From: Cyanophora paradoxa CCMP329
Taxonomy: Eukaryota > Plantae > Glaucophyta
NCBI GenBank assembly: GCA_004431415.1
Contig: QPMI01000457.1
Span: 124,001-188,000 of the forward strand
Direction of reading: 5' to 3'
DNA: 64,000 nucleotides
Positions within the stretch are counted from its first letter, which is position 1, and the number at the start of each line of letters is the position of its first letter. The translations under genes were made by a program, and so were the position numbers. Under the pieces are notes generated by a model that made no database searches, was not told where the DNA came from, and saw only the letters and a program-made list of their open reading frames with translations. Of the stretch, positions 7,001 to 41,300 are shown piece after piece.

Positions 7001-10000
7001 GTCCCGTCACGACCGCGCAGGCGTTCGAGGGGGAGTACCGGAAGAAGCTGGGGGGGGCGATGGCGGGGAAGATCGCGGGGAGCGGCCTGTGCGGCTCGCC
7101 CCTCTTCCTCCTCTCCCTGCTCGAGGAGCTCCGCCTCTTCGGCGTCTTCGAGCGGCTCGAGGCGCACCTCTCCGCCTGCCTCGCCGTCCGCGACGCGGCC
7201 GGCCTCTACGGCCGCATCCTCGAGCGCTGGGAGGCCTCCCACGCCGCCGTGCCGGTGCGGGAGCTCCTCGTCGCGATCGCGTGCAGCCGGGCCGGCCTGC
7301 ACGAGGCCGAGGCGCGGGAGCTCTGCGGGGCGCCGCCCCAGCGGGAGTGGTCGGCGTTCCTCTTCGAGGCGGGGCCCTTCCTCGCCTCGCACGCCGCCCT
7401 CCTCTCCTTCTTCCACTCCTTCCTCCGCCGCGCCGTCGAGGAGCGCTACGGCCTCGCGCCCGGCGGCGAGGGCCGCAAGGCCGCGCACGCCCGCCTCGCC
7501 GACTTCTGGCGGGGCCAGCCGCACGGCCCGCGGCGCGCCCACGAGCTGCCCGAGGCGGCGCTGCAGGCGGGGCGGCTGCGGGGCCTCGCGGCGGCCGTGA
7601 TGGAGCCGCCGACGCTGGCGCTGCTGGACCGCGCGGCGCGGCCCGACCTCGTGCGCTACTGGCGCGCCGTGGGCGAGTCGGCGCCGACGATGGCGGAGAT
7701 CTGCCTCGTGGAGCGCTTCCGCGTCGCGGCGCTGCTGCCGTGCCTGCCGGGCCTCCAGCCGGCCTTCACGGTCCCCCGCGAGCACAACAGCTACGCCGCC
7801 TTCCCCGAGTCCCTCGCGTCCGCCCTGCCCCGCCCCCGCCCCCGCCCCGCCCCGCCCTGCCCTCGACCGACCCGTGCCCCGCAGGAACCCGGATTCGTGG
7901 GACGGGTACCAGGCCTGGCGGCAGTTCGCGCTCGAGTCCGGGACGCTCCGGGGGATCGACTTCACGCGGGGGTACCGCATGGCGTGGGGCGACGGCGTGC
8001 GCTACTCGAACGGCGTCATCTGCGACCGCCTCTTCGCCTCGGACGGGCGCCTCCCGGACGGCTGCTTCTTCCCCGACGTGCCCGTCAAGTGCGCACAGGG
8101 GAACGACAACGGCGAGGCCCTCACCCTCGCCCGCCCCCTCGGCCTCTACGAGTACCACACCTGGGAGGTGCGCGCTGGAACACGCCCCGCTCGCGCCTCC
8201 TTTCTTCTCCGTTTTTCGCGCCCCTGACGCCGGCACGCCTTATTTGTGCAGAACCAATGGGCCAAGCGCGCCAGCCCGACCCCCGGCCCCTCTCAGCTCC
8301 CGTCCTGACCCTGGCCGCGGCCCGGGCGCAGCTCCGTGTCGTACAAGTTCAACCCCGACGACAGGCCCTTCTGGGACAAGGAGGCGGGGAAGCCGACGAC
8401 GGGGCAGCTCTGGGAGCGGATCATCGAGACGGTGGCGGGGCAGGTCGGTCCCCACCACGCCTGCGTCGCCGCCCTCTGCTTCAACCTCGGCTGGCGCCTC
8501 TGGAACGTGCGCCCGGCCTCCCCCTCCCCCCCCCCTCCCCCCCCCTCCCCCCCCCCCCCCCCCCCCCTTCAAATTTCTCAATTTCCACTCCGCCTCCGTC
8601 CCCGCCATCCCCCCTTCCCCCTTCCCTCCCTTTTCCCCCTCCCCCTTGATCCGCCTGATCCACCCAGGGCGCGCGTGCAGGAATGGGAGGCCGAGAGGGG
8701 GCTGCCGTGGCTGCAGCGCTGCGCCGCCATCCGCCTCGAGCACTACGTGCGCATGCGGCCCCGCCCAGCTCTGCCCGCCTTCTTCTCGCGATCGGCGTCA
8801 CCGATCGTTTGGCGGGCAGCCGGAGGCGCACGTGCTGGTGGGCCGGGCGCACGTCGTGCTGGCGGAGTGCTTGGAGGCGGCGGGGAGGCCAGAGGAGGCG
8901 GCGGCGGCCCGCGAGGTCGCTGAGCGGGCGCGCGAGAAGCAGGCCGCGCTGCTCCTCGACGCCGCCGCCTGGCTCGCCGCCGTGCGCCCGACCTGGCCTG
9001 GCTCGGCCTGGCTCGGGCTCTCGATCTTCTAGAGCTGATATCGATGTCGCTGCGGCCGAATCGCGATTCCGCAGATGGGCCGCCTGTTCATCTCGAGCGG
9101 GGACGCCCCCGCCAGCATCGAGTACCTTAGGAAGGCCGTGGACATCTACAACGTGCGCTCCCACTCTGTTTTCGCGTGCTTCAAAATTTTGCAGACGGTC
9201 CAAAATGCGATTTTCGCAGACGGTGGGGTCGGGCAGTGCGAACGAGCACGCGGCGGCGCACGCGGCGGCACTGGAGGCACTGGCGGAGGCGGACGGGCGC
9301 GGCGAGCGGGCCAAGCACCTCGCTGCCGCCCTCGCCCTCCGCGAGGCCGTCTCGGGCCCCCAGCACCCCGACCTGGCCCGCCCCGCCCCGCCCCGCCCCT
9401 CCTGCCCGACGGCGCCTCACACGCGCGCGCGGTGCACAGCTGCTGGCGCTGTGCGCGCTGGGGCGGCTCGCGACGGGCGGGAAGCGGGAGGACTACCTGA
9501 TGCGCGCCGAGGCGATCGCCGCCAAGGCGCTCGGGAAGGCCCACCCGCGGTGCACTCGGCCGGCGCCTCGAGCTTCTCCTCGCGCCCGGCCCGCTGGCCA
9601 CGGCCGCCCATGCGAGGGGATCTAAGGTACGCCGACGTGCTGGAGGCGCGGGAGGCGGGCGAGGCGGACGCGGAGAAGGCGGCGGGGCTGCTGCAGGCGG
9701 CGGTGCGGGTCAAGGAGCAGGCGCTGGGGGCCTCCCACTGGGAGCTCGCGGGGCCCCTCTGCGCCCTCGGGCGCCGCCTCTCGGCCCTCGGGCGGCACGC
9801 GGAGGCGACGGCGGCGGCGCGGCGCGGGCAGGCGATCGCCGAGCGCGCCTTCCCGGGGCAGCCGCGGGCCGCCGACGCCCTGCGGACCTCGGCCTCTGCC
9901 TCGCGGCCGCCGCGCTCGCCGCGGCGGAGGACCGCGCGGCGCTCGCCGCCGCGGGGGACGAGGCGCACGAGGCGCTCTCGCGGGCGCGGGTCGCGGTGCG

Positions 10001-11191
10001 GGCCGTCTGGGTCGGCTACCAGCTGCACAGGAAGGGCGGGGCGGACCGCGGCGAGGGCGCCGAGGCCGCGTACGCGAGCGCGCGGGTCGTCCTCGCCGCC
10101 CTCGCCGACCTCCACACCAAGCTCGCCGACGGTGCGCCCCGCTGATCGATCGTGAATTCAAAGCGAATTCGAATTCGATCGGGGGCAGCGTGGTGGAGGA
10201 AGCACGGGAGCAAGCCGCGGCAGGACTTCCACCTGGGGCAGGCGCGGGAGGCGGACCCGGCGGCCTTCACCAACTTCCAGAAGATGAGCGACCGCTTCGA
10301 TGTCTACCGGGAGGCCCCCGCCGGGGCGCACGCCCTCCTCGAGGACCCCGCCGCCGTCGCCCGCGTGCGCCCGTCTGGCGCAGCCTCTCGCGTTAATTAA
10401 TCTGCGATTAATATCGGGGCGCCGGCGCCGCGGGCAGGTGTCGGCGCACCGCCCCAAGGCGGCGTTCTGCGGGGCGTGCAAGGCGGGCCCGCTGCAGATC
10501 AACGACCTCTACTCCTGTGCCGAGTGCCCCCCGCGGCCCGGAGTGTACCTCTGCACGAGGCGAGAGCTTCCCCGCCCTCCTTCAGCTCCCCCCCCCCTTC
10601 GCCCCCACCCCCCCCCCGTCGCCCCTTCCCCCCCCCCCCCCCCCTTCCGTTCCCCCTGTTGACGGTGCAGCAGCTGCTTTGGGGGCAAGCCGGACCACGC
10701 GGAGCACAAATTTGTGCGGGTGCGCGTCCCTCCCGCCCGCAACCGGCGCCTTCGCGCGCGTCCCGACGGCCTGGGGGCGGCAGGTCGCAGACGTGCCGCG
10801 GCAGGTGCCGCCCGCACCGAAGGAGGGCATGAAGGCGCGGCTGCTGCCCCTGCGCACACGCCCCTCCCCACACTCCCGTCGGCCCGGCGGGCCCTGACAT
10901 GCACGTGGGCCGGCGGCAGCTGTGCACGCGGTGCGAGGCGTGGTTCGACCCGGGGGCGGCGGCGGGCTGCGCCAGCCACTCGGCGTACTTCATGAACTCG
11001 CGGGGCTGGGTCTGCTGCACGTGCGCCAGCGCTATCTTCCTCTCAATATTTCCTTCCTTTACTGTATAATTTCACTATGCAGGAAGCAAGGGCGGGACGC
11101 GCCGGGGTGCCGGAAGGACAGCCACACGGACGCGGCGCGGAAGTGGCAGCAGGACCCGTCGTACGGCACCTACACCTACGTCCCCGCTTGA
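4048..11191 (+). CDS. Host DUF4062-NACHT(STAND NTPase)-TPR protein (NPHP3/TTC41-like) with C-terminal Cys-rich (ZZ-like) fingers; many introns
   Basis: DUF4062 motifs VRIFLSSTFR-DMQRERD and DLRWG..CLSELDRC..GQRYGW; Walker A GRSGLGKS (~6230-6255); Walker B LIVVDSLDQ (~6617-6645); TPR-like helices 8800-10100; CxxC motifs 10460-11020; stop at 11191 followed by AATAAA at 11201. Confidence 0.8.
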
Positions 11192-11327: not shown

Positions 11328-14300
11328 CTAGAAGCGCGAAGCGATATTAATATTGCTTCTTGGCTGTCTATCACGTATGCGCTTGCGAGTCCACCACCGC
11401 CGCATCAGAACGACGAGTCCCACTAACGACGGTAACAGAAGCAGGAGGCCGAAAGTGCCGAACATGAGTGCGCCCGGCAGTATTTCTCGGTGCAGTACGC
11501 GTAGCTGGCTGGAGGAATAGAAGATCCCAGAGCGATCCAATACAAGTGCGGAAAAAGACCCTAATACGAAAACGAATCCCCAGATAAACAGACCAACTGC
11601 ATCAAAGAAGGTTCTTTGATCGTTGTGCGCGTTATGCTGAAGTAGGATCCTCTGGGCGAGAGCGACTCTCATTTTGACAGGCAACAAATCCACGACAGAC
11701 ATTCTATTCGATTCAAAATCAAATCGAATACATTATTCAATCAATTGAATGGATTTACGAACCCCGCTAGAACAAGCAGCGCTAGCGCCCCGCACGCGAA
11801 GAACAAGCTTTGTCCGAACTTCGACTGAAATCGACAAGTCGTCCAGAACCATAACTTTGAGCTCGACGCCGACGTCGACGTATTCGTTTGCGAGAGCCTC
11901 TCGAGACTGGCATTGACCGCAGCATACGCAGCGGTTATGGCGGTTAAATTCGCTTTCGGGGACGCCGTTCGACTTATGTTCGCGAGCTCGGCTTGATATT
12001 GCTTAAGACCGTCGATGTACGCTGCTTGCGCGGCTTGGTTTCGCTTGATACCGTCAATGTAGGCAACAGCATCTGAAAAGCTCGAGTTTGGAGATGAATC
12101 CGCAACGCAGATCACCGGGCCGTAAAAAGCGTGAATGAAATGGTCTACGTCCAGATTGAGTGTGGTTGCGTTCAGGCTTACGGAGAGTATGTAATTCTCA
12201 TCCCCCGAGAACGGCTGACTCCAAGATGACAGGTGAATACCGATGTAGATACATACCCCGCCAAAGATGATGAAAAGCATAATTCGAAGAAAAAATGCCA
12301 CAATGCTAAACACTTTCCTTAGAGCTCGCCTTATCGCTTCACTAGCTGGCTGATTCTGTACGGGATGGTGAGCATATTTGCATGTGCAACATTTGAGGCT
12401 CTGGATCGGAATCGGCACTGGCGCTGCACCTGAGCCGGATGTTCTGTTCTGTGACAATAAAGAAATGAGCCGGCCGATCGCGACGTCGTGCACACAAGTA
12501 ACTGCGCTTGCCACGACTTGTCCAGCGCATTTGTCTAACGGAGCAATCGCCTTCAAATTAAATTATGAAGGTGATCGCGACTTGACTTTATAAAGTAAGC
12601 AAGCAATGGGGACACCGTCTCACACAATCGGAAATCCACGATAGGACTGTCGTAGTTCAGCGTTTCGATTCGGCGGAATTCTATATTCGAATCATCGAGG
12701 CCGTTCGGCGTCGATTGTCTCAATATGGAGACTTTCCCGTCTGTACTTCCGCAGCACAGTACGTGAAATCGCTTGTCTGCGCGAGTCTGGGCGCGCCGCT
12801 CGTGATGATCAGGAACAGAAGCTTTTGAATCACATGCAGATGTCAAACACAAAAGCTGCGCATACTTGAAGAAAAGCAGTGGAGAGCGTTGAGATGACGT
12901 TTGAATGCACCTCCATTGTCGAAATAAGCTTCTCATTTCTCCGGTTCCAGACGTACGCCTTGCCATCAGACGCCCCTGCGAAAACATGCGCCTGCGCGAA
13001 GTTTTATATTCTCCTCAGCCGTATCGCGATCGGCCTTCATCTTTTAATACTCGCACCTGCGACAAAGCTAAAGCAGTGCACCGGTTAAGCGCAGGAATCT
13101 GCATCTGATGGCGTTTCGTGGATTTTCCCGGTTTCTTCAAGTGCAGGCTCCTTGCATCGAAAATCAAGACCATGCCGTCGTCACATCCAACCGCAAATTG
13201 CGTCTCTCCCGCTTCCTGAGGCTAAGCATGTTAATGGTATTTGTTTTTGTCGATCGCAAATAATTATAAATATCACTGACGACTGCTGCAGCTGTCGCGG
13301 AGGACAGACAAAGTCGCTGTGCGACCACCCCCGACACGACATCAAATATTGCAATATCGCCATCCGACTGGAGGGCGATGGCGTGCATGCGCCTTTTCTA
13401 CAAATTTGCAGATCGAATGCAGATCGAACTTTAATAATGACAAACGACGTCCAGAATGCACACAGCACTTGCCTGCGGTTTGTCGTCCAGGAAAGCGATG
13501 TTTGAAATCTCGCTCGAAAAGATGGGGTAATCCGCGTCGCCTATCTCTGTCCCAGGAGCGCCGTCCACGTTGATGCATCGAACCGCGGCTCTTCCGGTGC
13601 TCGTCCCGCAAACCAGCATACCGCCAGACTGCCGGATCACGATCAATTATCTCCTGCTTGCAATTATCTCCACGTGCACACCCGTGCGCGCACCTCTGAC
13701 ACTGCGATGCAGCACATTTCACCGGATGTGCGCCCGATAAGAATTTCTGCCCACGCAATCGCACGCCCAGATCTCCAGGCGAAAACGCGATAGCCGTCGG
13801 CATCTCCCAAGACGACCGTTGAACCCGCCTGCAAAAGTTATGTATATTATACTAAGTTATAACTTATTACTTATGACGCATGCGGACACCCGTAAAAAAA
13901 CTCAGTCTTCACGGGACGGCCGAGCCAAAAATCCTCGGTAGTTTGATTGAGGTCAGAAAACTTACCTTAGGGTTGTGTCAACGCATATGAGAACACAGTG
14001 TGGCATAACGTAAATTACATCAGAATCACAAATTAAATTTTGACTTCAGATTTACAGTTATTTACCGCGCTTATTCTCGAAAATCTGCTGCGATAACGCC
14101 AGATCGACACATTACCCCAAGTGAAACTAAACTCAAAATGTCAGCACGTTAATTTAATTAAAAACCGCAATTTTAATTTTGCCCAGCCGCGCGCGGATCG
14201 AAATCGATCGATCGAAAACCGGTTCCAGTTTGGGTTTTAAAGAAATTTAATGCATGCCACATGGATTCGCAGTCGTAGTGCGCGCCTGTTGTAAAGGGGA

Positions 14301-17300
14301 GGACCCCCCCCCAAACCAGACCGCCCCCAAAGTCTGGTTTTACCTTCAGGGATCCACCCCTTCTAGCGTCATCAATTAACGATTTCCCTGAAAACAGTTA
14401 GACGTGCCAATTAGGCGTGTTGTTCGCTATATTACAGATTCATTGTTAGCTAGGCGTGTGCAAGTGTAGCTTTGGATCTGTTGCGGATATATTAAGTTAG
14501 GTTGCTTGAGGGCGCGATAGCTACTGGCCATGGGCCACACTTGCTTGTGCACGGTCTGGTTTGGCCTCAGGAGAGAGTGTCAGCTAGCTTGCGTAGCATT
14601 TGACTCACAAGAAACCTAGCTGATTTCCGAATCCATCGACGTCGACTGAAGCTAGCTTGCATAGCCTTTGGCTCACAAGAAACCTAGCTCTAGAAAATAC
14701 TCTCAGAAAGAGAAGTAAGCTTTCTTTTTCTGTAGACACTTAAGCGATCTTTGGCCTTCTTTATGAGTTCATCAACATTCTCGAGTTCTACTATTTCACC
14801 CTTGCACTCTTTCAGAAAGAGTTCAAAAAAGATCATATCTCTGTCTGAAACGTAATTCTTTTGGCCAGCCTGATAGAGCTTAATTTCCTGAACTTTCCTG
14901 GCATTTGTGAAAATGTAAACCTCTGCAGCCCGCCAGATACAATTGCTATATAACTGTGGCAAATATGGTTTGGTGCCTTTCATGCAGGCATTTTGGAGAA
15001 CATTTAGCGAGATATCGCCTTCAAACCTTGGTATGATGATAGTTCGCTCCCCGTTGTAGTTGTCCCAGAATCCAGGTCGGCCCTGTGGCCATGCTGTGTT
15101 AAAACCACGATGTTATGTAATTAACGTATACATTCCAGGCCTGCAAACCATGCCATCTCGCACGCAGTAGGTATTAGGAGGCAATGAGTTCAACAAAGTT
15201 TGGATGACAGGTTCAGGTGCTCCACCTGGGCAATGGTTACAGCGTGCACAAAATAGTGATAAGCGGTCAAACCTACGACAAAATAAATCGTCGTGTATGA
15301 GGACTTGTCCGGTGAGTACATGCAATATTTATACTGTTGATCCCTCTCGTCACGGAAATTGCCAACAGGAAACATCCTCTGGAACTCTGCAAATGACTTT
15401 CCACCTAGTCAACATCGTGATCAAGTTAGATGGAAGCACAGCACGTGGTTGCGAAAAGAACTACCATGGTACCTGCTAGAAAAGTTTTCATGCGTTGAAT
15501 AAATTGTACGTGGACTTGAGAACGACCTGGGTGGTCCAACTGTATACTGGTCGTTAATATGCACGCGCACATGGCAGGAATAGAGAATTAAAGTACCGTT
15601 CCAAATGCAAAATATCCGGGATGGGCGCAATTCACGTCAATATTCCGAAAGCAATCAAGAAAGTCCCGTTGTTGGCGTTCTTCGATTCGAAGTACAGTTG
15701 GGGCATGGCCCATAGCACGATAATCTTTGTCGCTGAATGCGCGTTCAAGCATCAACTTCATAAAATTCAGCGATTTCTTGTGGTACGTAGTAATGTATCC
15801 CTGTCGGGCGTTAATGGGGCCGGGGTGACGTCGGGCCACATGGATATAAATGAAACACGTTTAGGCAAACCTTGATGATGTACTGGTTCTCCTGGTCTGT
15901 ATAAAAAACCCGGAATTCAGCATACTTTACTTCCTCCTTGCATTGCCCGTTATTTTCGAATACTTTGCGAGTTGAGCGGAAGCATCGTCTCCAGACAGAT
16001 ATGTCGGCAGGCTCATCCCGCGTAAATTTCTCAAATGTGAAGAAGTGGCGTTTGCGTATGTTAGGATCATCCGAGCCATAGCCCTTAAGAGTAATGGTGT
16101 AAGGCATATATACTGTTGCAGGTTTGAGTTAGTGCACATACGCACACACATATATAAGATACCGAATTGGACACCTGTGCACGTGGGCGTCGATCGACGT
16201 CTAGCGTTTGCGAGTATGTGTGCACGTCGCCAGTGCCTGTGTAATGTATGTATATATCTGGTATACGTAGAACCAAAGCGATATCGTGAGCCACCATCAT
16301 GGCATCGGACGCACCGTATCGCAGGCGCTAGCTACTGGTACGCGGGCAGTAGCCTTGGTGGCCGGCGCCAGTGCTACTACCGAGAGCAGTCTCAGCGAGC
16401 TATGCGCGCTACTGCGGCTACTAGGCTAGCGCGGCACTACTAGGCTGCGGCACGCCCGCGCCTCGCGTGTACTACCGTAGTACGGTACTAGTTTACTCAG
16501 TGACCACGCTATCAAAGCCTATCATAGTATAGCCTGGTACTACGGTAGTAGCCTCAGTACGGTACTAGCCTGGTACCGGTATATAGCTACTAGGCTATCA
16601 TCAGCCTGACAGTAGCCTATCGGCGCGCGCGTCTCAGTCTATCATCGCATATCGCCGTCGATTCGCCGAGTCTACCGGGCTATCGCCGTACTACGGTAGT
16701 ATACTACTAGGCTAGCGCCATACAACCAAATCCGAGTCAAAATGTACGGCGAGTTCGAATTCTCGCCGCCGGACCGTCGCCGAGTCGGACCCGGGGCCTA
16801 GCCTAGGCCTACTGTAATTCGGGTAATATTTAAGGCGGCCCCGTGCCTAGCCTCGTGATAATTCGGTAATAACTACCGGTAGCCTCGTGGCACGTGCCCG
16901 GCGGCCCCGGCCACGGGTGCACAACCGTTGAACCGTTGAACTTTCGGAACTTCGCTGACGTACCGTCGGACCGTCCGACGGTCGGACTGAGCCTGACTCG
17001 CCGCGAGTCGGTGAGTCGGAGGCGCGCGTGGCCCGCGGACTGTAGCAGGGCATCGAATGCCCAGAGGTTGTTGAAAGAATATAAACCATATCAGGGCATC
17101 GAATGCCCAGAGGTTGTTGAAAGAATATCAGGGCATCGAATGCCCAGAGGTTGTTGAAAGAATATAAACCATATCAGGGGCATCGAATGCCTAGAATACT
17201 AAAGTTGCTTTTTATAACCTCTGGGCATTTGCAATTGCAATACCACAATCGCAACATTAATTTGTACAAAAGTTGATTTTAAACCCTTCCACAATCGCAA

Positions 17301-20300
17301 CATTAATTTGCACAAAAGTTGATTTTAAACCCTTGTCAATGCCTAGAATACTGAAGTTGATTTTTAAAACCTCTGGGCATGCGTAATATTACAACATTAC
17401 AATGTTTGCAATGTTTGCAATGTTGAAGATTTTGGACAGGAAGTTATAAAATTTATATAATAAATGGCGCCCGCAGACTATATAATGACTCTAATAATGG
17501 CGCCCCGGCGAGCGACTAAACAATTACATAATAAACCTTTAGCACTGAATTCCCCAACTTACGTCAATTCCCCAATTTACGTCAGTTCCCCAACTTACCG
17601 TACCGCAGCGGCACAGTTTGCAAACTGTTGATTGGCTAGATCGGCAAACCCTGAATTTGATTTTTGATTGGTCGCAACCGTTTCACTAAGCGATTCACGA
17701 AATATGTAACATGTATATGATATGTTTGGGGCCTGGCGATTCATGTTCAGGCCGGTACACGTACTAGGTTTTGATTGGTCGCAACCGTTTCACTAAGCGA
17801 TTCACGAAATATGTATATGATATGTTTGGGGCCTGGCGATTCATGTTCAGGTCGGTACCCGTACTAGGCTCGGCGAACACGAACCCTCACGATTCAAGTT
17901 CAAGCTGCGAAAAAACCAACTGGAAGAAAACAAAAAAACACGAAAAGTGAGTACAAAAACAACCAATCGCAAATGCCGGAGGTTTCACAGTCGCGGGCCA
18001 TGGGGCGCCGATTGCACTACTGCGCGGGCCTGCAAGGTAGAAGCCTAGATTGCATGGCTTAGAGGTTTCCTGCACTCTATCTAGCAGTCAGAGATTGTTG
18101 CGCTGAAATCCGAAATTAATTTCAGTCCCTCTTCTTGGAAGCGCATGCAATGGCCAGCACTGCAGCACTTAAGGCCGAACTTAGAAATTTAGCGACAGAA
18201 CTTTATGATCGTGGATATGTTCACGGGACATTTCGAAACAAACTGATGCGCCTGGCGGACGCTAGCAGCGGGACCTGGGGCCGAACGATTCGCAAATATA
18301 TAGCAACACTGCTGCGACTGCGGAGCACGATTCGCCCAGCACGCCGCTTATATGAAGGCCAGCTCGCAGGCCATTTTGGCGCAATTGCAGCAGCTCGCGC
18401 AAACGCGGTTCAGGCCGAGGAGGCGATACTGGAGGACGTACCTAATATATTCCAAGATGTTGAAGAAATTCCCGTGCCACGAGATCTGGATGGGGTGCTC
18501 TCTCACAGGCACCACCGCTATCCGAATTTACTATTCGATAAGCACGTATATGCAATCGAGCCCAGTTTCGATCCGGAGTCCGTAAAGAATTTAACGATTG
18601 ACATCCTCGGGCAGCTGGGCGTTGCGGAGATGATAGGGCGATTTGTGATAATCCGGTTCCGCTTTGACAATAATCACATGTATACGACCCAGCTAATTCA
18701 AATCAGACAGAACGGGTTGCAGACTTTGACTGAGAGTTTAGATGAGCGGATTGCGCAGTGGATGTCAGCGCAAATGTCATATCAGGAGGACGATATTTGG
18801 GTGGTAATATTGATCGAGGTGTTAATTGCAGACAACGCGGCTGGCGCCCTAGGCAATGTTCCGAAATTGCCATTTTATCATCGGACAGTCGATAAGCTAT
18901 ACTGCCCGATGTCCCCAGCGAATGACTGCGTGCTCGAATGCTTTGAGTACGTTAAATTAGATCCACGCGGACTGAGCCTGAAGACAGTAATCGAAAAGCT
19001 GGCGAAGGCACCCTATGCATCTATTCGAGAGCGGCTCGGACTGGGAAAGGGCATGATATCTCTTGATCGCAGCACAGTAGAAGCGATCTGCGGAATATAT
19101 TCGATAGATGCAACTGTGACGGAGTGGGCAAACACGAAATTCAAGGAGCTTTTTCGAACCCAGTTTGATTATTCGAAGCGTGCAATTCTCTGCAACATCG
19201 ATGGGCATTGCTACCTGATTAAAAAGGAGGCGACACTAGGTCTGGAGCGGTGCCCTTGCTGCGGAAAGATGTTTGATTTGGCAACGCATGTGGAGCAATG
19301 CACGTTCTGCAATAACTGCAAACGCGCGTACGACCCCAGAAAAGATCATTCATCAGAGTGCCAGGAGATGACGCGCCGTCAAAACGTGATCGGGCGGCAG
19401 ATCAAGCCCTGCAAACCGGAGACAGAATTTACAGCGTTGGACAGCGTTGTCTGCGCGGATTTTGAAACGTTTGCTGCCAACGGCAAGACGCACGTTCCAT
19501 ATGCTGTCAGCTATTGCATGATTGAAAAAGGGGAGGTCTCGCCATGCGAGCTAATTTATGGTGAGCAAACGTTGGACTTGTTCATGCGCTGGCTTGAGCG
19601 CCGCAGCGAGAAGACGACGTTGGTGTTCTACAATGGGTCTGGCTTTGACTATATATTTGTCTACAAATGGCTCGTGTTAAATCGACCGAATACAGCATTA
19701 AACGTTCTGCGGTCGAACGGCAAGATCAAGAATATGTCGTGGAAAACGGCTGCAGGCGGGCCTATAAGTACGTTTGATCCGTGCCTGCACATCCAGGCTT
19801 CGCTCAAACAGGCCTGCAAGGACTACGGCTGCACTAACGTAAAGGGAGATTTTGATCATAGCAAGATTAAAACGTGGGAGGACGTTGAGCGCTTTAAATC
19901 TGAATGGGAGCCGTACGTGGAAGACGACGTTAAGGCAATGACAGAGCTTTACATTAAATATTCGACAGCAGTCTTCGATCTGTACGGCTTAAACGTGAAC
20001 ACAACGCAAACAACCACAGCTTCGGCAATGGCGTTCCAGATTCATCGGCAGACGTTGATCAATCCAATTTCGCTACCGACCTACAAGGATGATCAGGTGC
20101 TGCGCCAGGCAATATATGGTGGACGGTGTCTCCCATTTAAACGCAAATTCGTCTCATCGGGCCCGGATGATTATTTAGTCGACCTGGATGTTGTAAGCTT
20201 GTATCCGACGGCTATGTACGAGAATTGGTTTCCAACTGGAAAGTACAAGCATATTACGTCGCCCGATGCGCTGGACAGATTCTGCAAGATATTACAATCG

Positions 20301-23300
20301 AATCAGCGTTCGTTGATGTTTATTGCGTGCGTGGACGTGACAATTCCGCAAAATCTGCTGCTCTCTCCGCTGCCACGGCACGAATCTAATCTAGGCTGGT
20401 CTAATCTCAAGCCAATTGAGCGCGGTTGGTATACGTCAGTCGATATTAATCGTGCAATTAAACTGGGATGCGAGGTGACGAAGGTGCGCGAGGTCTACCT
20501 GTTTGACGGTAAAGATCAGATGTTTAAGACCTACATGGAGCGGATGTACTGCCAGAAAGCTAGATCTCGCAAGGGAACAGCTCCGTATGCGACGTCAAAG
20601 ATTTACATGAATGGCCTTTACGGTAAATATTGCCAGCGGCCTGTGATCACAACCTCGGATCTGGTCACATCATACAAGCGATTTCGAGAAATTCAGCGAT
20701 CAGCGCAGATCACAGACATTTCGATCGAATCAGACACGCGGATGTTTGTCACGTACGAGATTGAGGAGTCCAAGCGTGATAGAGCTGTCACTAAACCGTG
20801 CTTTATTGGCGCATTTATTCTGTCATATTCGCGGGAGATCATGGACAGGTTTCTGATTGAAATAGGCGCATACTGGAGCATCGATGCAATGCCGTTTTAT
20901 ACTGATACGGACTCTTTGATTGTCCATCGAAAATACGCTGATCTGCTGCGGGCAAAAGGTTATATGAAGCCAGCATATGATATAGCGACGGCAACAGATG
21001 CGGACATTTGCAGGCAGGAACTAGGGAAACTTGACTGTGACATTAAAGGGCGGATTGTGGAAGCGTACTTCATTGGGCCGAAGCTTTATACGTGTTCATT
21101 TGTACGTGACAGCGACGCGCAGCTTGATCTGCATGTACGCGCAAAGGGGATTCCGCAATCGTGGATCCAGGAGCACTGGCTACCAGACGAACCAGAGGAG
21201 AGGAAAGGGGCCCTCGACCGCAGGATCGCTCTGGATGCTTACAGGTGCATGCTCGAGGATCCCACGTACCAACCCAAATGCACAATCGAATCAAAGCTGG
21301 CCCGTGTTTATAAACCGAACGGGCGGCAACGGGAGAGCGGAATCAGCTTTAGTTCCATGATCCAAATTCCGTTCGCTCGACAGCTGAACAAGTCGCAGTA
21401 TACAAAGCGCAAGATAATTTCGGACGAATACTATAGTAGCGTCCCCATGAGTACCGCGCAGGCGAGCCGAATTAAGCAAGCTTATTACGATCCGGAAACT
21501 GGCTTTCAGTCTGCGGCGAGGATAGCTAAGCGGCTCAATTTACCGCTATCAAGAGTGCAGGACGTACTTTCAAAATTGACGACTGCGCAGCGTTTTGCGA
21601 AACCTGTAAAGGAAAAGCCATCGACCAGCATAATTTACGGGGAGCCCGAAAAGTACTACGAAGTCGATCTGATTGATGTGACCCCGTACGCGAGAACTAA
21701 TCGAGGGATTACTTTTATTATGAACGGTATCGATGTGACGACGCGCAAAGCGTATAGCATCCCTATGAAGACGAAATCGGAAAGCACTCTGCTAGCCAGT
21801 TTGAAGAAATTGATTGATGCACTCCCCTCGAAGCCGGACGTCATTCAGACAGATCAGGAGTTCAAAGGAACCGCAGCAACAATGCTAGCGAGTATGGGCA
21901 TCAAGCATAATGCAGTGGAGGCGCATCGCCCGCAAGCAAACGGCAAAATAGAGAGATTTAATGGTACGCTTAAGCGCATCATTGCAAAGTACATGGATGC
22001 GTACGACACGGACAGATATATCGATAAGCTGCCTGCTTTCTTGCGCAATTATAATTCGTCAGAGCATAGGTCAATTGGTACGTCGCCGAACGCTGCAGCA
22101 GAAAATCCGAAGGAGACAATTGCACGCAACGACTACCAGAGAGAAGCGTACGAGCAACAGCACTATTTTGCCCAAGCGGAATTTAAGGTAGGCGATCGGG
22201 TGCGAGTGCAGCTAGAGCGGCAGCGTTTCGACAAGTCTTCAAAGCCGACGTATTCAAAAGAAATCTATACGATCACGGAGATAGGTGGCTTTGGACCGCT
22301 GCTCAAATTTACGCTTTCGGGCTACGACAAAGCGGTGACCTACCAGCGACTATTGAAAGTAGCGGCAGATTCAGAGGAACGTCGTGCGGGCAATGCAGCA
22401 CAGCGGGCACAGCAGCGCAGGAAGAAAGAGATTAATCTAATGCAAGAGAATCTAGACAAGAGTGATATAGAGAGAGCGCGCAAACTCGAGCGTTTGCAGA
22501 AGCAATTGTTGACTGCAGGTAAAGAGAAGCTGAACCCAGGAGGGGCAACACAGAGATGGTATTCGTCGTTCCAGAATAAAACTGCAGCGTACTCAGCCCC
22601 TGGCAATACGCGAACTCTCCGCCCACGCGCGTGAAAAAGAAAGTGAGCCATCTTGGCTTTCTCCTTCTTTCGCTCCCCTCTTTTTACTTATTGCCGGCCA
22701 TTAGAGAGCTATAACAATTGTTTGTTGGAGGGACTCTAGCAGTGCTAACTTTTCGTAGATTCGATTGCGATAGCGGCGATTGGCCTCCAGATGGCCCTCA
22801 CTGTTATTGCGTTGATATTTCAGACTGGCTTCGATGTGACGTCGCCGGTAATCAGGATCTTCATTGTACCTGCGCCGATGGCTCTCGGCTCGCTTGGCCT
22901 TCCGTGCCGCAGCGATTTCAGGGGTGACAACAATTGGCTTGCGGCCTGGGCGCTTTGGCGATGATTCGGCATCCATATTTGCGGGTTTCTCGTCACAAAC
23001 AAGGAGCGAAATAATTTTATGGCATCAATCGCAGAACGACCAACTGCGTTGGATTTCGAGAATTAAATCCGAGATATAATTAAAACAATGCCAGCAACGA
23101 TCCGATTCGGCAAGTATCGAGGGGAGACGCATCTGGAGGTTGTTTACAGGGATCCAAAATATGCAGAATGGTTAATTTCGTGGCCGCATTTGCGCCCATA
23201 CGATAAGCAAAAGCTTGAGCGTGCATTCGAAATGTGCCGCACAATAGAGGGCTCTGAGCTTAGGAAGATGATTGACTTCGCAAAGCAGCAGCGACGTCCT

Positions 23301-35300: not shown

Positions 35301-38300
35301 CTACTCACTGGGCTCCCCAGCCATCCATATGAGGCAGCATGAAGTTAGCGATGCTATTGCGGGATTAGAGTCCACTGAGCGTCCAAACTCAACTAATGCA
35401 TTTGATCAACGATCTGTGATTCGGTGTAAAGAATTGCGAGCAGATAAAAACTCTGGGGTTGTAAAAACAACGCGATTATTAGTCACTAATGCAAATTTTT
35501 CCCAGCCCATAACAGGGGGAGTTGATTCGTACAGTGTTGACCTCCGAAGCATAAACTATGATCAAAACACTGCTGCCCTCACTGTGCGCTCCGGGGGAGC
35601 AGCTATTACTGGAGCTTGCCGTGTTAGTGGAGGACTATCATCATCGATTGCCATCAATGATGTTCCAGACTTTTCATTAGAGAATGTCGAAAATCGTAAA
35701 CGAGTTCGAATGTACTTACCTTGCTGTGACCTCCCCTATGCACAAGCTCTAGTAGAAGTTGAGATAACCATAGCAAATTCAAGTACACCAAATGGTCTGG
35801 ATGGTGAGAGGCTGCTTTCAAACAGAGAAATACCGAAGGCGCTTCAATCACTCTGTCAGGATCAAAATGATCAGATAGGGCATGTGTATACGTTCTTTGT
35901 GCAAGGCCTTGGACACGCTGGACGTGGATACGTTGTTCGTAATATCAATTCAAGACATCTTTTTGATTTATATGCTACTGCTATAGGCAGATACTCTATC
36001 CTAATCATCGGCTATCGCTCCGATGTAGCTGCATCAGTGGCCACTAGAGGACTGAACCCTGATCCGGCACTGAATAATATGTATGAGGAAGGCAATCCGG
36101 AAAATCCTATACCTTAAGTGGAAAGTTTTATCTCCTGTTTTCTAAAATGGAAGCTGTTGAAAGAATTGTTGTTCCCTCTTTGACACTAGCAGCCCCAGCA
36201 AATCACGTCCTGCAGCATGCTGTCTCAGACGATGTCCCCGGCCTGCAATCAACTGAGCAGCAGCCAACTCTAAACACCTTCCGAGATAATCACATCATAC
36301 GTTTAGGAGAGGTTAGATGCGACAAAAATAATGGAGTGGTCAAAACAACAAATCTTGTCGTAACAAACGCAAACTTTAATGCGCATTATGGGGATCCTGA
36401 TAGCTATGATGATGCTAACAAGGTTCACACTTTTACCTATGAATCAAGATTAGGGGCTGTTACCTGCAGGTCCGGAGGTGCTTATATTGGAGATGGCCTG
36501 AGAGTGGGTGGAGCTGCTTGCGCCCCTATATTTGTAAATGATCAACCTAACCCTGAAAACACTAATGAAAGAATCAGAACGTATGTTCCCGGTATGAATT
36601 TGCCTTATATCATCAAAGTCTTCACGCTAAACATAAATGAGCAAACATCGATCGTAGATAACGTTCAGCCACTCGGAATCCATTTCAAGAGTGTTGTTGA
36701 TATTCCCCCGGATATCTACTTCCTTTGTAGGAGAAACGATGCTCTCCGGCCAAACATAGCTGTTTTAATTAATCCTATTGACAATTTTGGTGTCGCTTTC
36801 CATTCTACTCCAGTGGGGGTTGAAGATTACCAGTTTATTGTGAGGGCTACGCTTATGGGCGCCTACAAAATCATTCTATTTGCCGAAAGAACAGATGTGA
36901 TTGCAAATGGTGTCAAGTACGGGGAGACCTTCAATTCGAATCGTTATTTCCCGATTGGAGGGGCTGATCCCAACCCATAGAATCTTTGTTTTATATATAG
37001 CCCATACTAGATGGATTTGCTCCGTAAATGCATGGAGATGTTCCATCTCAACGTCACCAGCAAATTGAAATGCAGCTGCTGCGAGACAACTATTAACCTC
37101 GAAATATCTGACACTGAGGGGTCGCGCACCCCTGATACTCAGCTATCGCCTAATAACACACCCGGGACTTCAAGGTCCAATTCTCCTTTTACACGATCCG
37201 ACTCACCTGTACCATGGCTTGATTCTGATAACCGAAGATCGTCTTGGCCACCCCCAAATATCCCAAAGCCCCTGAAAAGAAAGAAGTCCCTGCTATCAAG
37301 TTTCAGAAAGGAGAAGCAACCAGCTGCAGATCAAGTGGAATGAGGCTGCGGCCTCTGAATCCGCACTATCAGCGCACTATCAGCGCACTATCAGCGCACT
37401 ATCAGCGCCAATCTTTTGTGTGTCACGTATCTCACCGTTTTCTCGCCACGTCACGTCACGTCACGGCGTCACGTCACGGCGTCCGCAAAGTTTTCTCGCG
37501 AACTTGACCCTCCGAATTAAAACAATTAAAACAAAAGAAAGGTGAGCTTCTGCAGCTGTTCAGCTGTGGTGCTCCAGCTGCATCAGCTCAAACCTGGAAA
37601 GCTCTGATTGCAGTGCTAGCTCTAGAATCGAAGAGATCCTGAGCAAGCACGAACTCCAGAAGTTGAGGCACAGACAAGCACAGGCAAGATACTCACAGAC
37701 ACCGCTAGGCAAAGAAACAAGGGTGCGCTCTGAGCAGAAAAGGAAGCAGAAGCTCTCACCTCAACGCCTAGCATCTAAAGCCATGTCTGATCTGTCAACA
37801 CCAAGAGACGGAATGCAAGTCGATTCCGTAGACCAACGAAACGCTGTTGCTGAGCGAGATCTACATAGCCTAAAGAGAAAGATCCAGCATCGCGAGAAAA
37901 AGGATCAAAAACGGCAAAAGCGACATGAATTCGGAGCTATGTGCAAGCAAATCACGGATCTAGCTTATCAGAAACTCCGAGGACTGGAGCAAATGAATCA
38001 GAGCATTACTGACATTATTGTTGCCTGCAAAGTACGTGCAATGTCTACCGATCCTAGGCCTGCTGCCTGGTAACGTTTCGTCAGGCCGCAATCGACAATC
38101 CGTTGTTTGACAGCACAAAGACTAAGAGCGTCCTTGATTCGCTGAAGACGAAACTGGAAGGATTTGACATTGACGAAGACGATGGGTTGGACAGCTGCAG
38201 TGATTCCGATGTCTAAAGTGGCAGCTGTCCACACTTAGCATAGGCTGTTCTCTTTATGTAGAAGTACACTTGCACACGCCTAGCTAACAATGAATCTGTA

Positions 38301-41300
38301 ATATAGCGAACAACACGTCTAATTGACACGTCTAACTGTTTTCAGGGAAATCGTTAATTGATGACGCTAGAAGGGGTGGATCCCTGAAGGTAAAACCAGA
38401 CTTTGGGGGCGGTCTGGTTTGGGGGGGGGTCCTCCCCTTTACAACACGCGCCAAATGCGTGCGGAGTCAACTGCGGACGCGATCGTAGTACTACGGTACG
38501 TGCACGTGCTCGCAAATGCAAATGATTGAGCCGATCGCGACGTCGCAATCGCGAGCCCGGGCCGCGACGTCGACTTTGACTAGGACTCTTTCAGTGAGCT
38601 GTCGGGCAACTTCTATAAAACAAATTAAATTAAAATCGAATCGATCCGATCGACGATCCGGTACCCCTCGGCCTTCGCCAGTACCAGACTACTACTACCA
38701 GTTCGATCCGATCGGACGTACCGGATTTTCCTTCACTCAGGTTGACGTGTCACAGTGTGTCACCGCGGGTACCGGTAGGCGGCGGTAGCGCCCGGCGCGC
38801 GGCCAAGCGCGCAGCGGCGCGCTGCGGGCCTGCGGCGCGCGCTGGCCGCGGGCCCGTGGCCGCCGCCACGCGGCGCCGTCGACGTCACGGCGTGGCGCGA
38901 GCCGCGCGACTGTCGCGTGAGTCGAGTTTTTCCCAGCAGTTTAAGCTGGCCAGTGGCGTGCATGGAAAGTGGCAGATAACGGAAGTAACGGAAAGTGGCG
39001 GACCCGAGATAATTATAACGGACGTTTCCGGAAAGTAACGGACAGCTTAAGTGGCGGATAGCGAAAAGTAACGGAAAGTAACCGAAACACACTGCAGTCC
39101 GACGGTCGACGTCTAGCTGCAGGCCCGCTGATCATGATTCGAATTCATGAGCAGCAGCAGCAGCGGTCGTTGCTGCAGTTGCGCTTATATTAGCAACCGC
39201 GTACATACTAGCGCTGCTGCGCATGCTTGTGCAGACGGAGCACTGCGGCGCATCAGCAGGTGAATTCGAAGTCAACGCAGCGATTGCGATCGCGAAAGCA
39301 GTGATCCTGATTTTGTCGAAGCCGCTGCTTATAAGCACCCGCTCCGGATCGTGAAGTGCCCGGCGGCCGCGAAGATTATTCGAATTCTTTTGTCCTGAAA
39401 AAGTCCGTCGTTCTGGCAAACTGCGCAAGATTCGAAATATATAATAGCTAATTGGAACAGTTCCGATCTATCGCTAGATCTTATAGCTCCGCTTCCGAAG
39501 CTCAAGATCTGAGAGTCTAGATCGAGGTCGGCGCGGCCGACTCGACGCGTATGGCGCTGACGTCAACGCTGCGCGTTTCTCGATTGAAGTTCAGCTGCAG
39601 ATCTAGATCTACGTATACATGCTTCGAATTCCAGATCGCGAAAAAATTCATTTCTGCATGTAAGTTTCTTTCGAATTCGCGTGCGATCGCTATAGCTATG
39701 TCCGACGGTCATGATATCGATCATCAGTTAATGGGGGGGTGCGGGGGGGCTTGCCCCCCTGCTTGTATCAGGAGCCGATGAAGTGCAAACGTAGGTGTCT
39801 TTAATTGTATTTTATCGATTGCATGCGCACGCTTGTAACGGCGAATAATGGGCGAGGCCGCGAAAGAACACATTGAACAGGACGTCCGCGCAAAAGAGAT
39901 CGATGTCCATGTGCTCGAGGGAACTTTGCGTCTTCTATATTAACCGGCCAGATCTTCAGTTTAACATCCGGATCCTTCGATAGAACAAACGCTTGACGCG
40001 ATCCAGCATGCAGCTGCGCATCTTATTTAAACCGCGCTTTTAAAAGAGCATTCTGATTTAAATTCATTAAATAATTTATAATTACGTCAACGTTCTACCT
40101 TACCTCGTTTTCGTTAGCGATCTCGAGAAGTTGAGCTCGATTAGGAGACAGTTTATGGTACTTTGTGGCAAACCCCTGAAAACATGCAGCCTCCGCGAAC
40201 AGAGCCATGTCAGACGTCGACTCCCTTGCCCATACACGACACGTTTGGTCTTCGGAAGCTGAAAGAAAGCTATTGCCATCCTGCAATAAAACGGTTTCAA
40301 TTCTACTAAAACATGAAAGGCATTATTGGGGAAGGGAAAATCACTTCCCCTGTCCCTGTCCCTCGGGCCCAACCCTACCCCAAATCCCATTTCCCCGACC
40401 TCCGCAAAACCCGGGCCGCGCGGTACATGCTGAAAGCCCATCCCCAGGGGACCCCGAAACCGTGTCTCCCGGTCCCGTCCGACCAAAGGGTGATCCAGGA
40501 ACAGGCACCAACACCCGGGACAAAAAGGGGTCCAGCGAGGCACATGGAGCAGATATACGGGCCGGACCAGTTCGAGGTCAATGCTTGCATTATGCCCGAC
40601 ATTCCGTACTGCAAGAGCGAGGCCGGGCGCGAGCGCGGTCGCGTAGGAGGACGCCGCGCGTGCTAGCCAATCGCATTGGAGAGTGCGAACTTACCCTGCG
40701 GAAAGTCTTTTTGCGGTACCCGCACGATCTCCTGCGTTCGCTGCAATGAGCCTCCCACGCTCCGGCCGCCCGAGCGGCAGCGGCGGCGCGAAGCCACCGC
40801 CGGGCATCGCCATCGGAGTCGATATCGAGCCGGCCAGCAAGCCCTGCAGTCAGCCAGGCTGCGGCGGATCTAGGCAGAAGTACGGCGGCAAGTGCCTGCA
40901 CTGCGGCCAGCACTTCTGCACGAGGGACGCGCTTTACAGTCATGTGCTGCGATGTAGACATCCGGCGGCAAGCAGCGCAGCCGTGAAAACCCGGGCAGCT
41001 GGCGCCCATGGCCACGCGTTCAGCGAGCGGCCTGAGTGCGGGGACTGTCAGCAGAAGAGCAAAGCCACCGGCAGCAAAGACGTGTGGGGCTGTGACCTCT
41101 GCGCTGCCCACTTCGTGCGCTTCGGCCCGGCGAAGGTGGTGGCACACCACGCAACTGCATCCTGTGAAAAGAACCGCTTACGTGGTACGCGGTCATTATG
41201 CTTTCGAAGCGTTCGAAACTTACCTTTTCGCTACGTGTATACGCTGTCGCAGATGAGCCGGAGCTGCAGAGCATCGCTGCGCGCGCGGAAGCCGCGCGCG

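What the first reader, a model, noticed from the sequence alone, without database searches (positions are those of the whole stretch)
14287..38446. Near-intact endogenous Polinton-like virus with retroviral-type TG...CA ends and an unusual gene set
Seen: 182-bp TIRs with only 2 differences, a perfect 6-bp TSD (CGCGCC) and a near-complete replication plus morphogenesis gene set. Known: canonical Polintons typically start with AG-type ends, whereas TG...CA is the retroviral/Ginger integrase substrate. Inference: a recent insertion, possibly of an undescribed lineage, that combines pPolB-integrase, a dead CRESS Rep, an NCLDV-like MCP, two pentons, a patatin and phage-derived fibres.
Basis: partly seen in the sequence, partly recalled or inferred. 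Interest (0 to 1): 0.88.

Follow-up and report, generated by a model that had tools for sequence, protein, structure and literature searches.

The report
Algal provirus with spliced dead Rep
This is a real, recently inserted 24-kb DNA virus genome in an algal chromosome, very likely one of a family already catalogued in glaucophyte algae; its new features are TGTTGT...ACAACA ends and a passenger gene, predicted to be spliced, that is likely a disabled replication protein taken from small single-stranded DNA viruses.

Summary
The structure is confirmed: 24,160 bp, 182-bp terminal inverted repeats with 2 mismatches, TG...CA ends and a 6-bp duplication (CGCGCC). A short-read contig of the empty site holds one copy of the target. 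The lineage is not undescribed. The capsid protein is 60-75% identical to a Cyanophora paradoxa MCP already listed with an NCLDV-type hit (PMC10120064). A 2025 survey counts 156 glaucophyte PLVs with RVE, pPolB and lipases but no protease, and names a PTR-PTR-H-lectin fibre like this one. The single pPolB-integrase frame and the broken MCP both sit at C/G runs where short-read contigs carry one more base. Both are probably assembly slips, so the fusion is probably not real and this copy may be intact. The pentons are unproven. Not found in my searches: (TGT)2//(ACA)2 ends, and a copy-specific CRESS-Rep-like gene that reads as one 369-aa frame after five GT-AG introns are removed (TAAC branch motif in 5 of 5, background 5%). 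Its nicking and Walker residues are replaced. Rep homology has moderate support only.

The parts
14281..14286 (.). Left copy of the 6-bp target-site duplication (CGCGCC)
   Evidence: empty-site contig
14287..14468 (+). Left terminal inverted repeat, 182 bp, begins (TGT)2
14582..14689 (.). Two 40-bp direct repeats (93% alike) just downstream of the Rep-like gene
14690..16107 (-). CRESS-Rep-like gene: six exons, five predicted GT-AG introns (15870-15801, 15596-15540, 15472-15405, 15272-15226, 15148-15083), 369 aa if spliced; HUH, active-site Tyr, Walker A and Walker B residues replaced; at single-copy depth
   Evidence: exact contig 14652-16755 at the depth of the unique flank
16400..18149 (.). 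Non-coding stretch with short tandem and inverted repeats between the divergent Rep-like and pPolB genes; likely control region (inferred)
18150..21475 (+). [quoted passage not shown] In the window it runs on into the integrase; with the extra base of the short-read contigs it stops at 21475
   Evidence: Pfam DNA_pol_B_2 E 5e-50
21447..22634 (+). Retroviral-type (RVE) integrase, 395 aa from its own ATG, D-D-E triad present
   Evidence: rve_3 E 2e-8; foamy-virus integrase E 3e-7; motifs
22701..23964 (.). Three small ORFs (91, 98 and 210 aa) of unknown function; the 98-aa one has a borderline ExoX-like_C match
23974..24717 (-). A32-type genome-packaging ATPase, 247 aa
   Evidence: Pox_A32 E 2.4e-9
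24780..26167 (-). [quoted passage not shown]
   Evidence: 75% and 60% identity of its two halves to P0003; fold and feature searches on P0003
26243..27199 (-). 318-aa ORF, candidate penton (unproven)
   Evidence: only a faint DUF5901 match, E 0.12; position beside the MCP
27227..28117 (+). 296-aa ORF, second candidate penton (unproven)
   Evidence: no family hit in Pfam; fold unusable, pLDDT 33
28109..29593 (-). Patatin-like phospholipase with catalytic motifs present and a C-terminal extra domain of about 170 aa
   Evidence: Patatin E 3e-25; potato patatin E 2e-21; no Pfam hit for the extra domain
29618..32791 (+). 1,057-aa fibre-like protein: 57-nt and 36-nt repeats, two PTR stretches, weak C-terminal H-type lectin match
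32811..36980 (+). Four paralogous ORFs (353, 341, 282, 277 aa) that share an N-terminal domain of about 130 aa; two end in weak C1q-like heads; plus an 88-aa ORF. Likely fibres (inferred)
37011..37343 (+). 110-aa ORF of unknown function
37783..38216 (+). Right-end gene with one predicted 44-nt GT-AG intron (38070-38113), 129 aa if spliced, acidic tail; at single-copy depth
38265..38446 (-). Right terminal inverted repeat, ends (ACA)2
38447..38452 (.). Right copy of the target-site duplication

Best explanation
This is a recent, integrase-made insertion of a Polinton-like DNA virus, likely of the multi-copy family already catalogued in the glaucophyte Cyanophora paradoxa and likely intact, which carries a copy-specific passenger gene predicted to be spliced and likely derived from a CRESS-virus Rep that has lost its catalytic residues. 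Shown: the TIRs, the 6-bp duplication, an empty site, sibling ends with other flanks, and genes for pPolB, RVE integrase, A32 ATPase, MCP, patatin and fibre-like proteins. Inferred cycle: the integrase joins the CA-3' ends of the linear genome to host DNA across a 6-bp stagger. pPolB would copy the excised or incoming genome by protein priming at both ends, the terminal (TGT)2 serving as a jump-back repeat. The ATPase would package it in a double jelly-roll capsid with fibres, and patatin would help it cross membranes. The two intron-bearing end genes would be read by the host's nuclear machinery while the element is latent; the intronless capsid block, with AT-rich leaders, would be a late block, possibly needing a helper giant virus. 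The Rep-like protein most likely works as a non-cutting DNA-binding oligomer, a regulator or decoy, and not as a replication initiator.
For: Ends and duplication. Empty site with one target copy. Sibling ends: 4 contigs of X16 with loose ends at 38446 (agreement 0.56), and one contig each in X21 and X24 with another flank. Core genes. MCP halves 75% and 60% identical to P0003, an EukProt C. paradoxa protein printed in Table S2 of PMC10120064 with an iridovirus MCP hit of 98.47%; PBCV-1 and iridovirus MCPs lead the fold search (E 2e-11); Atlas neighbours carry Capsid_N or Capsid_NCLDV, score 0.98. Family profile: of 156 glaucophyte PLVs, 85 rve, 49 PF03175, 89 lipases, 0 proteases, 0 tyrosine recombinases; a PTR-PTR-H_lectin fibre named from a C. 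paradoxa PLV. Both frame oddities lie in C/G runs where contigs have one more base, while four single-copy pieces (578, 2104, 542 and 748 nt) match X1 contigs without a difference. Introns: five GT-AG introns give one open 369-aa frame; TAAC lies 11-22 nt before the acceptor in 5 of 5, against 84 of 1,574 YAG sites in the element. Rep likeness: best of 2,133 targets against a profile of 64 Reps (12.2 bits, E 0.01; best of 1,000 shuffles 5.2); a free spliced alignment scored above all 129 controls, z 5.4, and found 4 of the 5 acceptors.
Against: Host identity rests on the nearest named homologue and on literature likeness; no host gene was tested. Logan contigs drop rare variants, so the two one-base differences could be real, private changes in this copy; at 25811 only part of the summed depth carries the extra base. 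No listed contig was seen to bridge either junction of this very copy. The MCP model is poor (pLDDT 46, TM about 0.3) and its Atlas recognition value is under the tool's threshold. Neither candidate penton was confirmed. The Rep profile was collected with the motif that matches best; with that region masked the spliced score falls to z 2.4 and no longer beats the best controls, and the N-terminal part alone is reached by 4 of 2,000 shuffles. Single exons hit no Rep family in Pfam, PHROGs or PDB. The free alignment chose other donors for several introns and missed intron 4. TAAC was noticed after the introns were chosen; the a priori pattern YTRAY fits 4 of 5. Jump-back priming, helper dependence and the Rep's role are untested.
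Confidence: 0.72

Rival explanations
1. This copy is a young but already defective provirus: the MCP frameshift is real, and the pPolB-integrase join is a real private one-base loss that made a chance fusion. It could move only with capsids supplied by siblings.
For: The window itself reads this way; contigs drop rare variants, so a single deviant copy could be hidden (tool note); the TIRs already differ at 2 places.
Against: Both differences are one-base losses in C/G runs inside multi-copy sequence, while single-copy pieces match exactly. That is the pattern expected of long-read consensus errors left unpolished in repeats (own knowledge). No other long frame is broken.
Confidence: 0.2
2. 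The family really encodes a pPolB-integrase polyprotein that couples protein-primed replication to integration, in every copy or by programmed frameshifting at the overlap.
For: One 1,494-aa frame in the window with both catalytic sets present; in the contig form the two frames still overlap by about 30 nt; pPolB and DDE integrases are reported to travel together.
Against: All laid depth at 21442 in 3 of 3 DNA runs carries the extra base; the integrase has its own ATG at the join; a search of proteins of 821-2,615 aa found no fused relative, only a 982-aa stand-alone pPolB and a retrotransposon polyprotein (a search of limited reach).
Confidence: 0.05
3. The left-end gene is not Rep-derived, or is a decayed fragment; the introns are chance or belong to a captured host gene with no role for the virus.
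For: No database hit for single exons; the masked spliced score does not beat the controls; the region is at single-copy depth while the core is higher.
Against: The alignment to the Rep profile is colinear over 189 positions and crosses four predicted junctions; joining exons 1 and 2 improves the rank from 173 and 37 of 1,000 shuffles to 5 of 1,000; branch motif in 5 of 5 introns; no stop in the spliced frame.
Confidence: 0.25

Closest known systems
Endogenous PLVs of Cyanophora paradoxa (366 MCP hits in 2 clusters, PMC10120064 Table S4; 156 elements, PMC12220804 Table S6)
   Same: MCP family (60-75% identity to a listed MCP), A32 ATPase, RVE, pPolB, lipase, no protease; a PTR-PTR-H_lectin fibre is named there from one C. 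paradoxa PLV, so this element or a sibling is probably in that set.
   Different: In the passages and rows I saw, nothing on terminal sequences, introns or a Rep-like gene. I saw only searched rows of those supplements.
Maverick/Polinton elements (Polintoviricetes)
   Same: pPolB, RVE integrase, long TIRs, 6-bp duplication, and a short repeat doubled at the very end.
   Different: Ends are (TGT)2//(ACA)2, not (AGT)2//(ACT)2, (AG)3//(CT)3 or (AC)3A//T(GT)3 (PMC8097293); no maturation protease found; NCLDV-type MCP; predicted introns.
NCLDV-like PLVs and mriyaviruses (Zoravirus VC102, VC218; 10.64898/2026.06.19.733378)
   Same: NCLDV-like MCP, 20-30 kb size, RVE common, HUH gene in part of the members.
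   Different: The HUH-like gene here lacks catalytic residues and is predicted to be spliced; no VLTF hit among the ORFs scanned; Mriya48 not tested; no tree could be built.
Mavirus and its endogenous forms
   Same: pPolB, RVE, TIRs, 5-6 bp duplication, latent in a protist genome (10.1101/068312).
   Different: MCP closer to NCLDV than to virophage capsids in the fold search; no protease found; helper dependence unknown.
Ginger1 transposons and Gypsy LTR elements
   Same: TGTNR 5' end pattern (PMC2836005), which TGTTG fits; related integrase.
   Different: Ginger1 has 4-bp duplications and a single gene; this element has a whole virion module.
Circovirus Rep-like nickases of Gulliviroviridae virophages (10.64898/2026.10.13.758929)
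   Same: A Rep-like gene within a small dsDNA polisuvirus.
   Different: There it is counted among the replication genes; here it sits beside pPolB, lacks catalytic residues, is copy-specific and has predicted introns.

Membership tests
Polinton-like viruses (broad sense) | [quoted passage not shown] | tested here: met
   Shown on homologue P0003 (60-75% identical): Foldseek to PBCV-1 and iridovirus MCP, E 2e-11, on a low-confidence model; Atlas Capsid_N clusters at 0.98; HHpred hit in PMC10120064 Table S2
Polinton-like viruses (broad sense) | A32-type packaging ATPase | tested here: met
   Pox_A32 E 2.4e-9, above cut-off
Polinton-like viruses (broad sense) | [quoted passage not shown] | tested here: inconclusive
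   Two candidates beside the MCP; DUF5901 E 0.12 for one; no PDB hit; fold unusable; BLAST between them E 0.33
Polinton-like viruses (broad sense) | 14-40 kb genome with terminal inverted repeats | tested here: met
   24,160 bp, 182-bp TIRs; range from PMC12220804
Polinton-like viruses (broad sense) | Virions or free genomes | not testable with these tools
   Only contigs were laid; no end-to-end or strand-change joint was listed
C. paradoxa endogenous MCP clusters (PMC10120064) | MCP at 25% identity or more over 30% of the length to a listed member | tested here: met
   60% over 346 aa and 75% over 125 aa to P0003, whose printed start matches a Table S2 row
Polintoviricetes (Maverick/Polinton proper) | pPolB and RVE integrase with a 6-bp duplication | tested here: met
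Polintoviricetes (Maverick/Polinton proper) | Adenovirus-type maturation cysteine protease | tested here: not met
   No protease family among the 20 ORFs scanned in Pfam; 0 of 156 glaucophyte PLVs have one
Polintoviricetes (Maverick/Polinton proper) | AG-type end motifs as in vertebrate Mavericks | tested here: not met
   (TGT)2//(ACA)2 here against PMC8097293
Polintoviricetes (Maverick/Polinton proper) | Mavpol-type MCP | tested here: inconclusive
   Nearest matches are NCLDV-type; the group HMMs were not available
Mriyaviruses and Zoravirus-like PLVs | NCLDV-like MCP | tested here: met
Mriyaviruses and Zoravirus-like PLVs | Active HUH endonuclease | tested here: not met
   The HUH histidine and active-site tyrosine positions are replaced in the alignment
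Mriyaviruses and Zoravirus-like PLVs | Mriya48 gene; ATPase tree position | not testable with these tools
   No profile or reference set on hand; no ATPase relative found
Virophages (mavirus type) | Virophage-type MCP and protease | tested here: not met
   Sputnik ranks 9 and mavirus 48, behind NCLDV MCPs, on a weak model; no protease
CRESS-DNA virus Rep | HUH domain followed by an SF3 helicase domain, in order | tested here: inconclusive
   Colinear match, E 0.01, best of 2,133; z 5.4 unmasked, 2.4 masked; N-terminal part reached by 4 of 2,000 shuffles
CRESS-DNA virus Rep | Catalytic residues: motif II His, motif III Tyr, Walker A Lys, Walker B Asp-Asp | tested here: not met
   All replaced in the profile alignment; motif names from own knowledge

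The most novel reading that the evidence does not exclude
A latent algal Polinton-like virus has domesticated a CRESS-virus Rep: nickase and ATPase both switched off, five spliceosomal introns gained, and the protein made by the host nucleus as a DNA-binding decoy or repressor that holds the provirus latent or blocks rolling-circle rivals. Intron-bearing end genes and an intronless capsid block would form a two-stage programme, host-read early and helper-read late, in a 24-kb virus.
Probability: 0.2. Interest if true: 0.72.

Novelty: new variant of a known kind. Interest (0 to 1): 0.4.

Why it matters
The element is a clean, probably intact provirus in a glaucophyte alga, so it is a good candidate for induction tests in a group for which I recall no isolated virus of this kind (own knowledge). 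A large survey states that such endogenous viruses contain no introns and predicts their genes with a prokaryotic tool (PMC10120064); spliced end genes like these would be missed systematically. The (TGT)2//(ACA)2 end keeps the doubled-triplet form of Maverick ends while offering the retroviral CA-3', which allows a direct test of how one end serves both protein priming and integration. It also shows that an eye-catching domain fusion in a repeat can rest on one base of an assembly.

Tried and rejected
No whole genome is held, so siblings could not be listed directly. Scans for relatives found none: ATPase, MCP alignment, integrase and pPolB in viral contigs; MCP and ATPase in metagenome contigs. 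The MCP found only P0003 and P0004 as real relatives (five weaker hits were long repetitive proteins), so no tree was built. A 35-nt intron as the cause of the MCP break was considered and dropped, because P0003 aligns through that stretch. A family-wide pPolB-integrase fusion was rejected. A local spliced alignment found only single segments and chose no intron; the glocal version was used. The last Rep exon found no relative among longer proteins or in PDB; the Atlas did not read it or the 318-aa ORF. The penton fold was unusable. No RNA holder was listed for 17000-26900; the three RNA-guessed runs laid covered only TIR pieces and short bits, so they say nothing on expression or splicing. 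No Rfam family in 11000-44500. No earlier findings of the scan. The original Polinton paper is not held. Searches for print on PLV TG...CA ends, an inactivated Rep in Polintons, spliceosomal introns in PLVs, pPolB-integrase fusion and Cyanophora elements gave no description of these ends or of a spliced dead Rep; the library lacks most subscription papers, and preprint supplements and external data sets were not seen.


Full report
1. Observation. The element runs from 14287 to 38446 (24,160 bp, GC 0.46). Its ends are 182-bp inverted repeats with 2 mismatches, beginning TGTTGT and ending ACAACA, and CGCGCC stands on both sides. Of lengths 4 to 8 only 6 gives a duplication. The terminal 21-mer is found twice in the window and never in 100 shuffles. 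The gene-rich host DNA further out has GC 0.70-0.79, but the near flanks are also low, about 0.5.

2. The insertion is real and has siblings. In run X16 a 630-nt contig at depth 228.7 follows the left flank to 14286 with its letters 1-309, and a contig of the same length and depth matches from 38447 with its letters 304-627. Taken as one record, the six shared letters are the target, present once: an empty site. Its depth is several times that of single-copy pieces (about 40 in that run), so the target is itself a repeat. At 38446, four X16 contigs run on into unlike flanks (agreement 0.56), and one contig each in X21 and X24 holds a variant TIR with another flank. The polymerase and capsid regions have higher summed depth than the unique flank; the tool warns that this is no copy number. 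The two end genes lie on exact contigs at flank depth (92 and 87 against 95 in X1), so at 85-90% likeness they are private to this copy. No listed contig bridged a junction of this very copy; the tables were cut.

3. Genes. Pfam gives pPolB (E 5e-50), rve_3, Pox_A32 (2.4e-9), Patatin (3e-25), two PTR stretches with a weak H_lectin end, and weak C1q heads. The integrase aligns with foamy-virus integrase and keeps D-D-E; the patatin keeps its catalytic motifs. A Cys/His pair before the exonuclease aligns with P0001 and may be the vOTU domain of PMC11161782 (section read); this is inferred, and the pairwise E is 0.12. Four ORFs share an N-terminal domain of about 130 aa. The large fibre has weak matches to phage tail fibres (14 records, best E 4e-4). 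The MCP halves are 75% and 60% identical to P0003. A poor model of P0003 (pLDDT 46) still ranks PBCV-1 and iridovirus capsids first, and the Atlas agrees (score 0.98, recognition under threshold). The two penton candidates gave only DUF5901 at E 0.12 for one of them; that this family is a penton family is recalled, not from a call. No protease was found among 20 ORFs.

4. Two one-base artefacts. The window has pPolB and integrase in one 1,494-aa frame. In 3 of 3 DNA runs the one contig over 21442 has one more base in a C run. Read so, pPolB stops at 21475 and the integrase starts at its own ATG at 21447. No fused relative was found among proteins of 821-2,615 aa. The MCP breaks at 25811, also in a homopolymer run, where 2-3 contigs per DNA run have one more base. 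Single-copy pieces match exactly. I put about 75% on both being assembly slips; contigs hide rare variants, so private losses are not excluded.

5. The lineage is catalogued. P0003 is a Cyanophora paradoxa protein. Its printed start matches a row of Table S2 of PMC10120064 with an iridovirus MCP hit at 98.47%, and Table S4 lists 366 MCP hits in 2 clusters for that species (supplement rows). PMC12220804 (passages and supplement rows) counts 156 glaucophyte PLVs, with 85 rve, 49 PF03175, 89 lipases, 0 proteases and 0 tyrosine recombinases by my reading of the columns, and names one C. paradoxa PLV with a PTR-PTR-H_lectin fibre, the layout of 29618-32791. PMC8502044 (passages) also mentions such contigs in that species. 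The host is therefore likely C. paradoxa or a close relative; no host gene was tested.

6. The ends. Vertebrate Mavericks end in (AGT)2//(ACT)2, (AG)3//(CT)3 or (AC)3A//T(GT)3 (PMC8097293, passages). Ginger1 and Gypsy start with TGTNR (PMC2836005, passages). This element has (TGT)2//(ACA)2: the doubled triplet of a Maverick end with a CA-3' strand end. A doubled terminal triplet suits jump-back priming by protein-primed polymerases, and CA-3' is the strand end that retroviral integrases join (both from own knowledge). I found no statement on the end letters of protist PLVs or mavirus, so I cannot say how rare this is.

7. The Rep-like gene. The minus strand 16107-14690 looks like broken fragments. 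Removing five GT-AG introns of 47-70 nt gives one open frame of 369 aa. TAAC lies 11-22 nt before the acceptor in 5 of 5 introns, against 84 of 1,574 YAG sites in the element; the pattern was seen after the fact, and YTRAY fits 4 of 5. A sixth predicted intron, 44 nt, lies in the right-end gene. To test homology I fetched 122 viral loci by a Rep motif and kept the 64 with a Rep frame of 240-420 aa. The spliced frame was the best of 2,133 targets (1,131 window frames, 1,000 shuffles, the reversed and the true sequence), 12.2 bits, E 0.01, colinear over profile positions 27-215. A spliced alignment free to pick its own introns beat all 129 controls (z 5.4), found 4 of my 5 acceptors and intron 3 exactly, but chose other donors and two other introns; with the collecting motif masked it fell to z 2.4, below the best controls. 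The N-terminal 237 aa alone were reached by 4 of 2,000 shuffles, the C-terminal 106 aa by 207. In the alignment the HUH histidine, the motif III tyrosine, Walker A and Walker B are all replaced. So: splicing likely, Rep origin fairly likely, catalysis lost if it is a Rep. Rep-like nickases are known in one virophage group (10.64898/2026.10.13.758929, sections 10 part 1, 11, 12, 13 read) and HUH genes in NCLDV-like PLVs (10.64898/2026.06.19.733378, Results read). Introners in dinoflagellate Polinton-like proviruses are also in print (PMC11957031, passages), so introns in such elements have a precedent. PMC12721341 (abstract and one section) describes helicase-pPolB fusions, not integrase fusions. 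PMC10045372, 10.1101/068312 and 10.1101/2023.08.22.554363 were seen as passages only.

8. How it likely works. Shown: insertion with a 6-bp duplication, sibling ends, the gene set. Inferred: integrase joining at CA-3' ends; protein-primed copying from both ends; packaging by the ATPase into an NCLDV-type capsid with fibres; patatin for membrane passage. The genes fall into two styles. ATAWA stands within 25 nt of the start in 8 of 14 ORFs from 23088 to 37343, in 0 of 5 others, and before 51 of 760 ATGs overall (chosen after the fact, and these leaders are AT-rich anyway). Introns are predicted only in the two end genes. This suggests host-read latent genes and a late block, perhaps helper-read; it is untested. 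A Rep without nicking or ATPase most likely binds DNA as an oligomer.

9. Verdict. The end motif and the spliced, disabled Rep-like passenger make it a variant worth a modest follow-up. Interest 0.4.

Noticed in passing
window 13900-14286 and 38453-38900: The target is itself a multi-copy repeat (contig depths several times single copy), so the virus is nested in another repeat of unknown kind.
   Followed up: partly
window 38265-38446 and 14286-14478: One contig per DNA run, at about twice single-copy depth, reads through a TIR end and goes back to the TIR's inner edge: elsewhere in the genome two TIRs seem to stand in tandem, as from an element inserted into or beside another.
   Followed up: no
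window 38314-38446 (runs X21, X24): A 1.3-kb contig in two RNA-guessed runs ends in a variant TIR (133 nt, 8 differences) with another flank; a sibling's end may lie inside a host transcript.
   Followed up: no
window 38314-38359: Loose ends at 38314, 38340 and 38359 show TIR subfamilies that share only the outer 90-130 bp.
   Followed up: no
window 18150-24717 against 24780-37343: CpG observed/expected is 1.1-1.3 in the six ORFs from pPolB to the ATPase and 0.3-0.85 from the MCP to the last fibre-region ORF: the two modules may have separate histories.
   Followed up: partly
window 17043-17868 and 37362-37483: Short tandem repeats (46, 37, 18, 100, 11 and 13 nt units) in the two non-coding stretches before pPolB and before the right-end gene; the 37357-37527 stretch has very high summed contig depth.
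   Followed up: no
window 4400-10150 (+) and 58000-63700 (-): Two host genes with short GC-rich introns that look like DUF4062/NPHP3-type NTPase genes with repeat tails (DUF4062 E 1e-7 for the right one, faint AAA_16 for the left).
   Followed up: partly
window 11328-13014 (-): Low-GC (0.49) ORFs of 134, 273 and 153 aa with hydrophobic stretches and no clear Pfam family, unlike the GC-rich host genes; possibly foreign or part of another element.
   Followed up: partly
P0004: A 431-aa MCP relative from an unnamed Logan contig, 35-36% identical, resembling other C. paradoxa MCP rows printed by eye.
   Followed up: no
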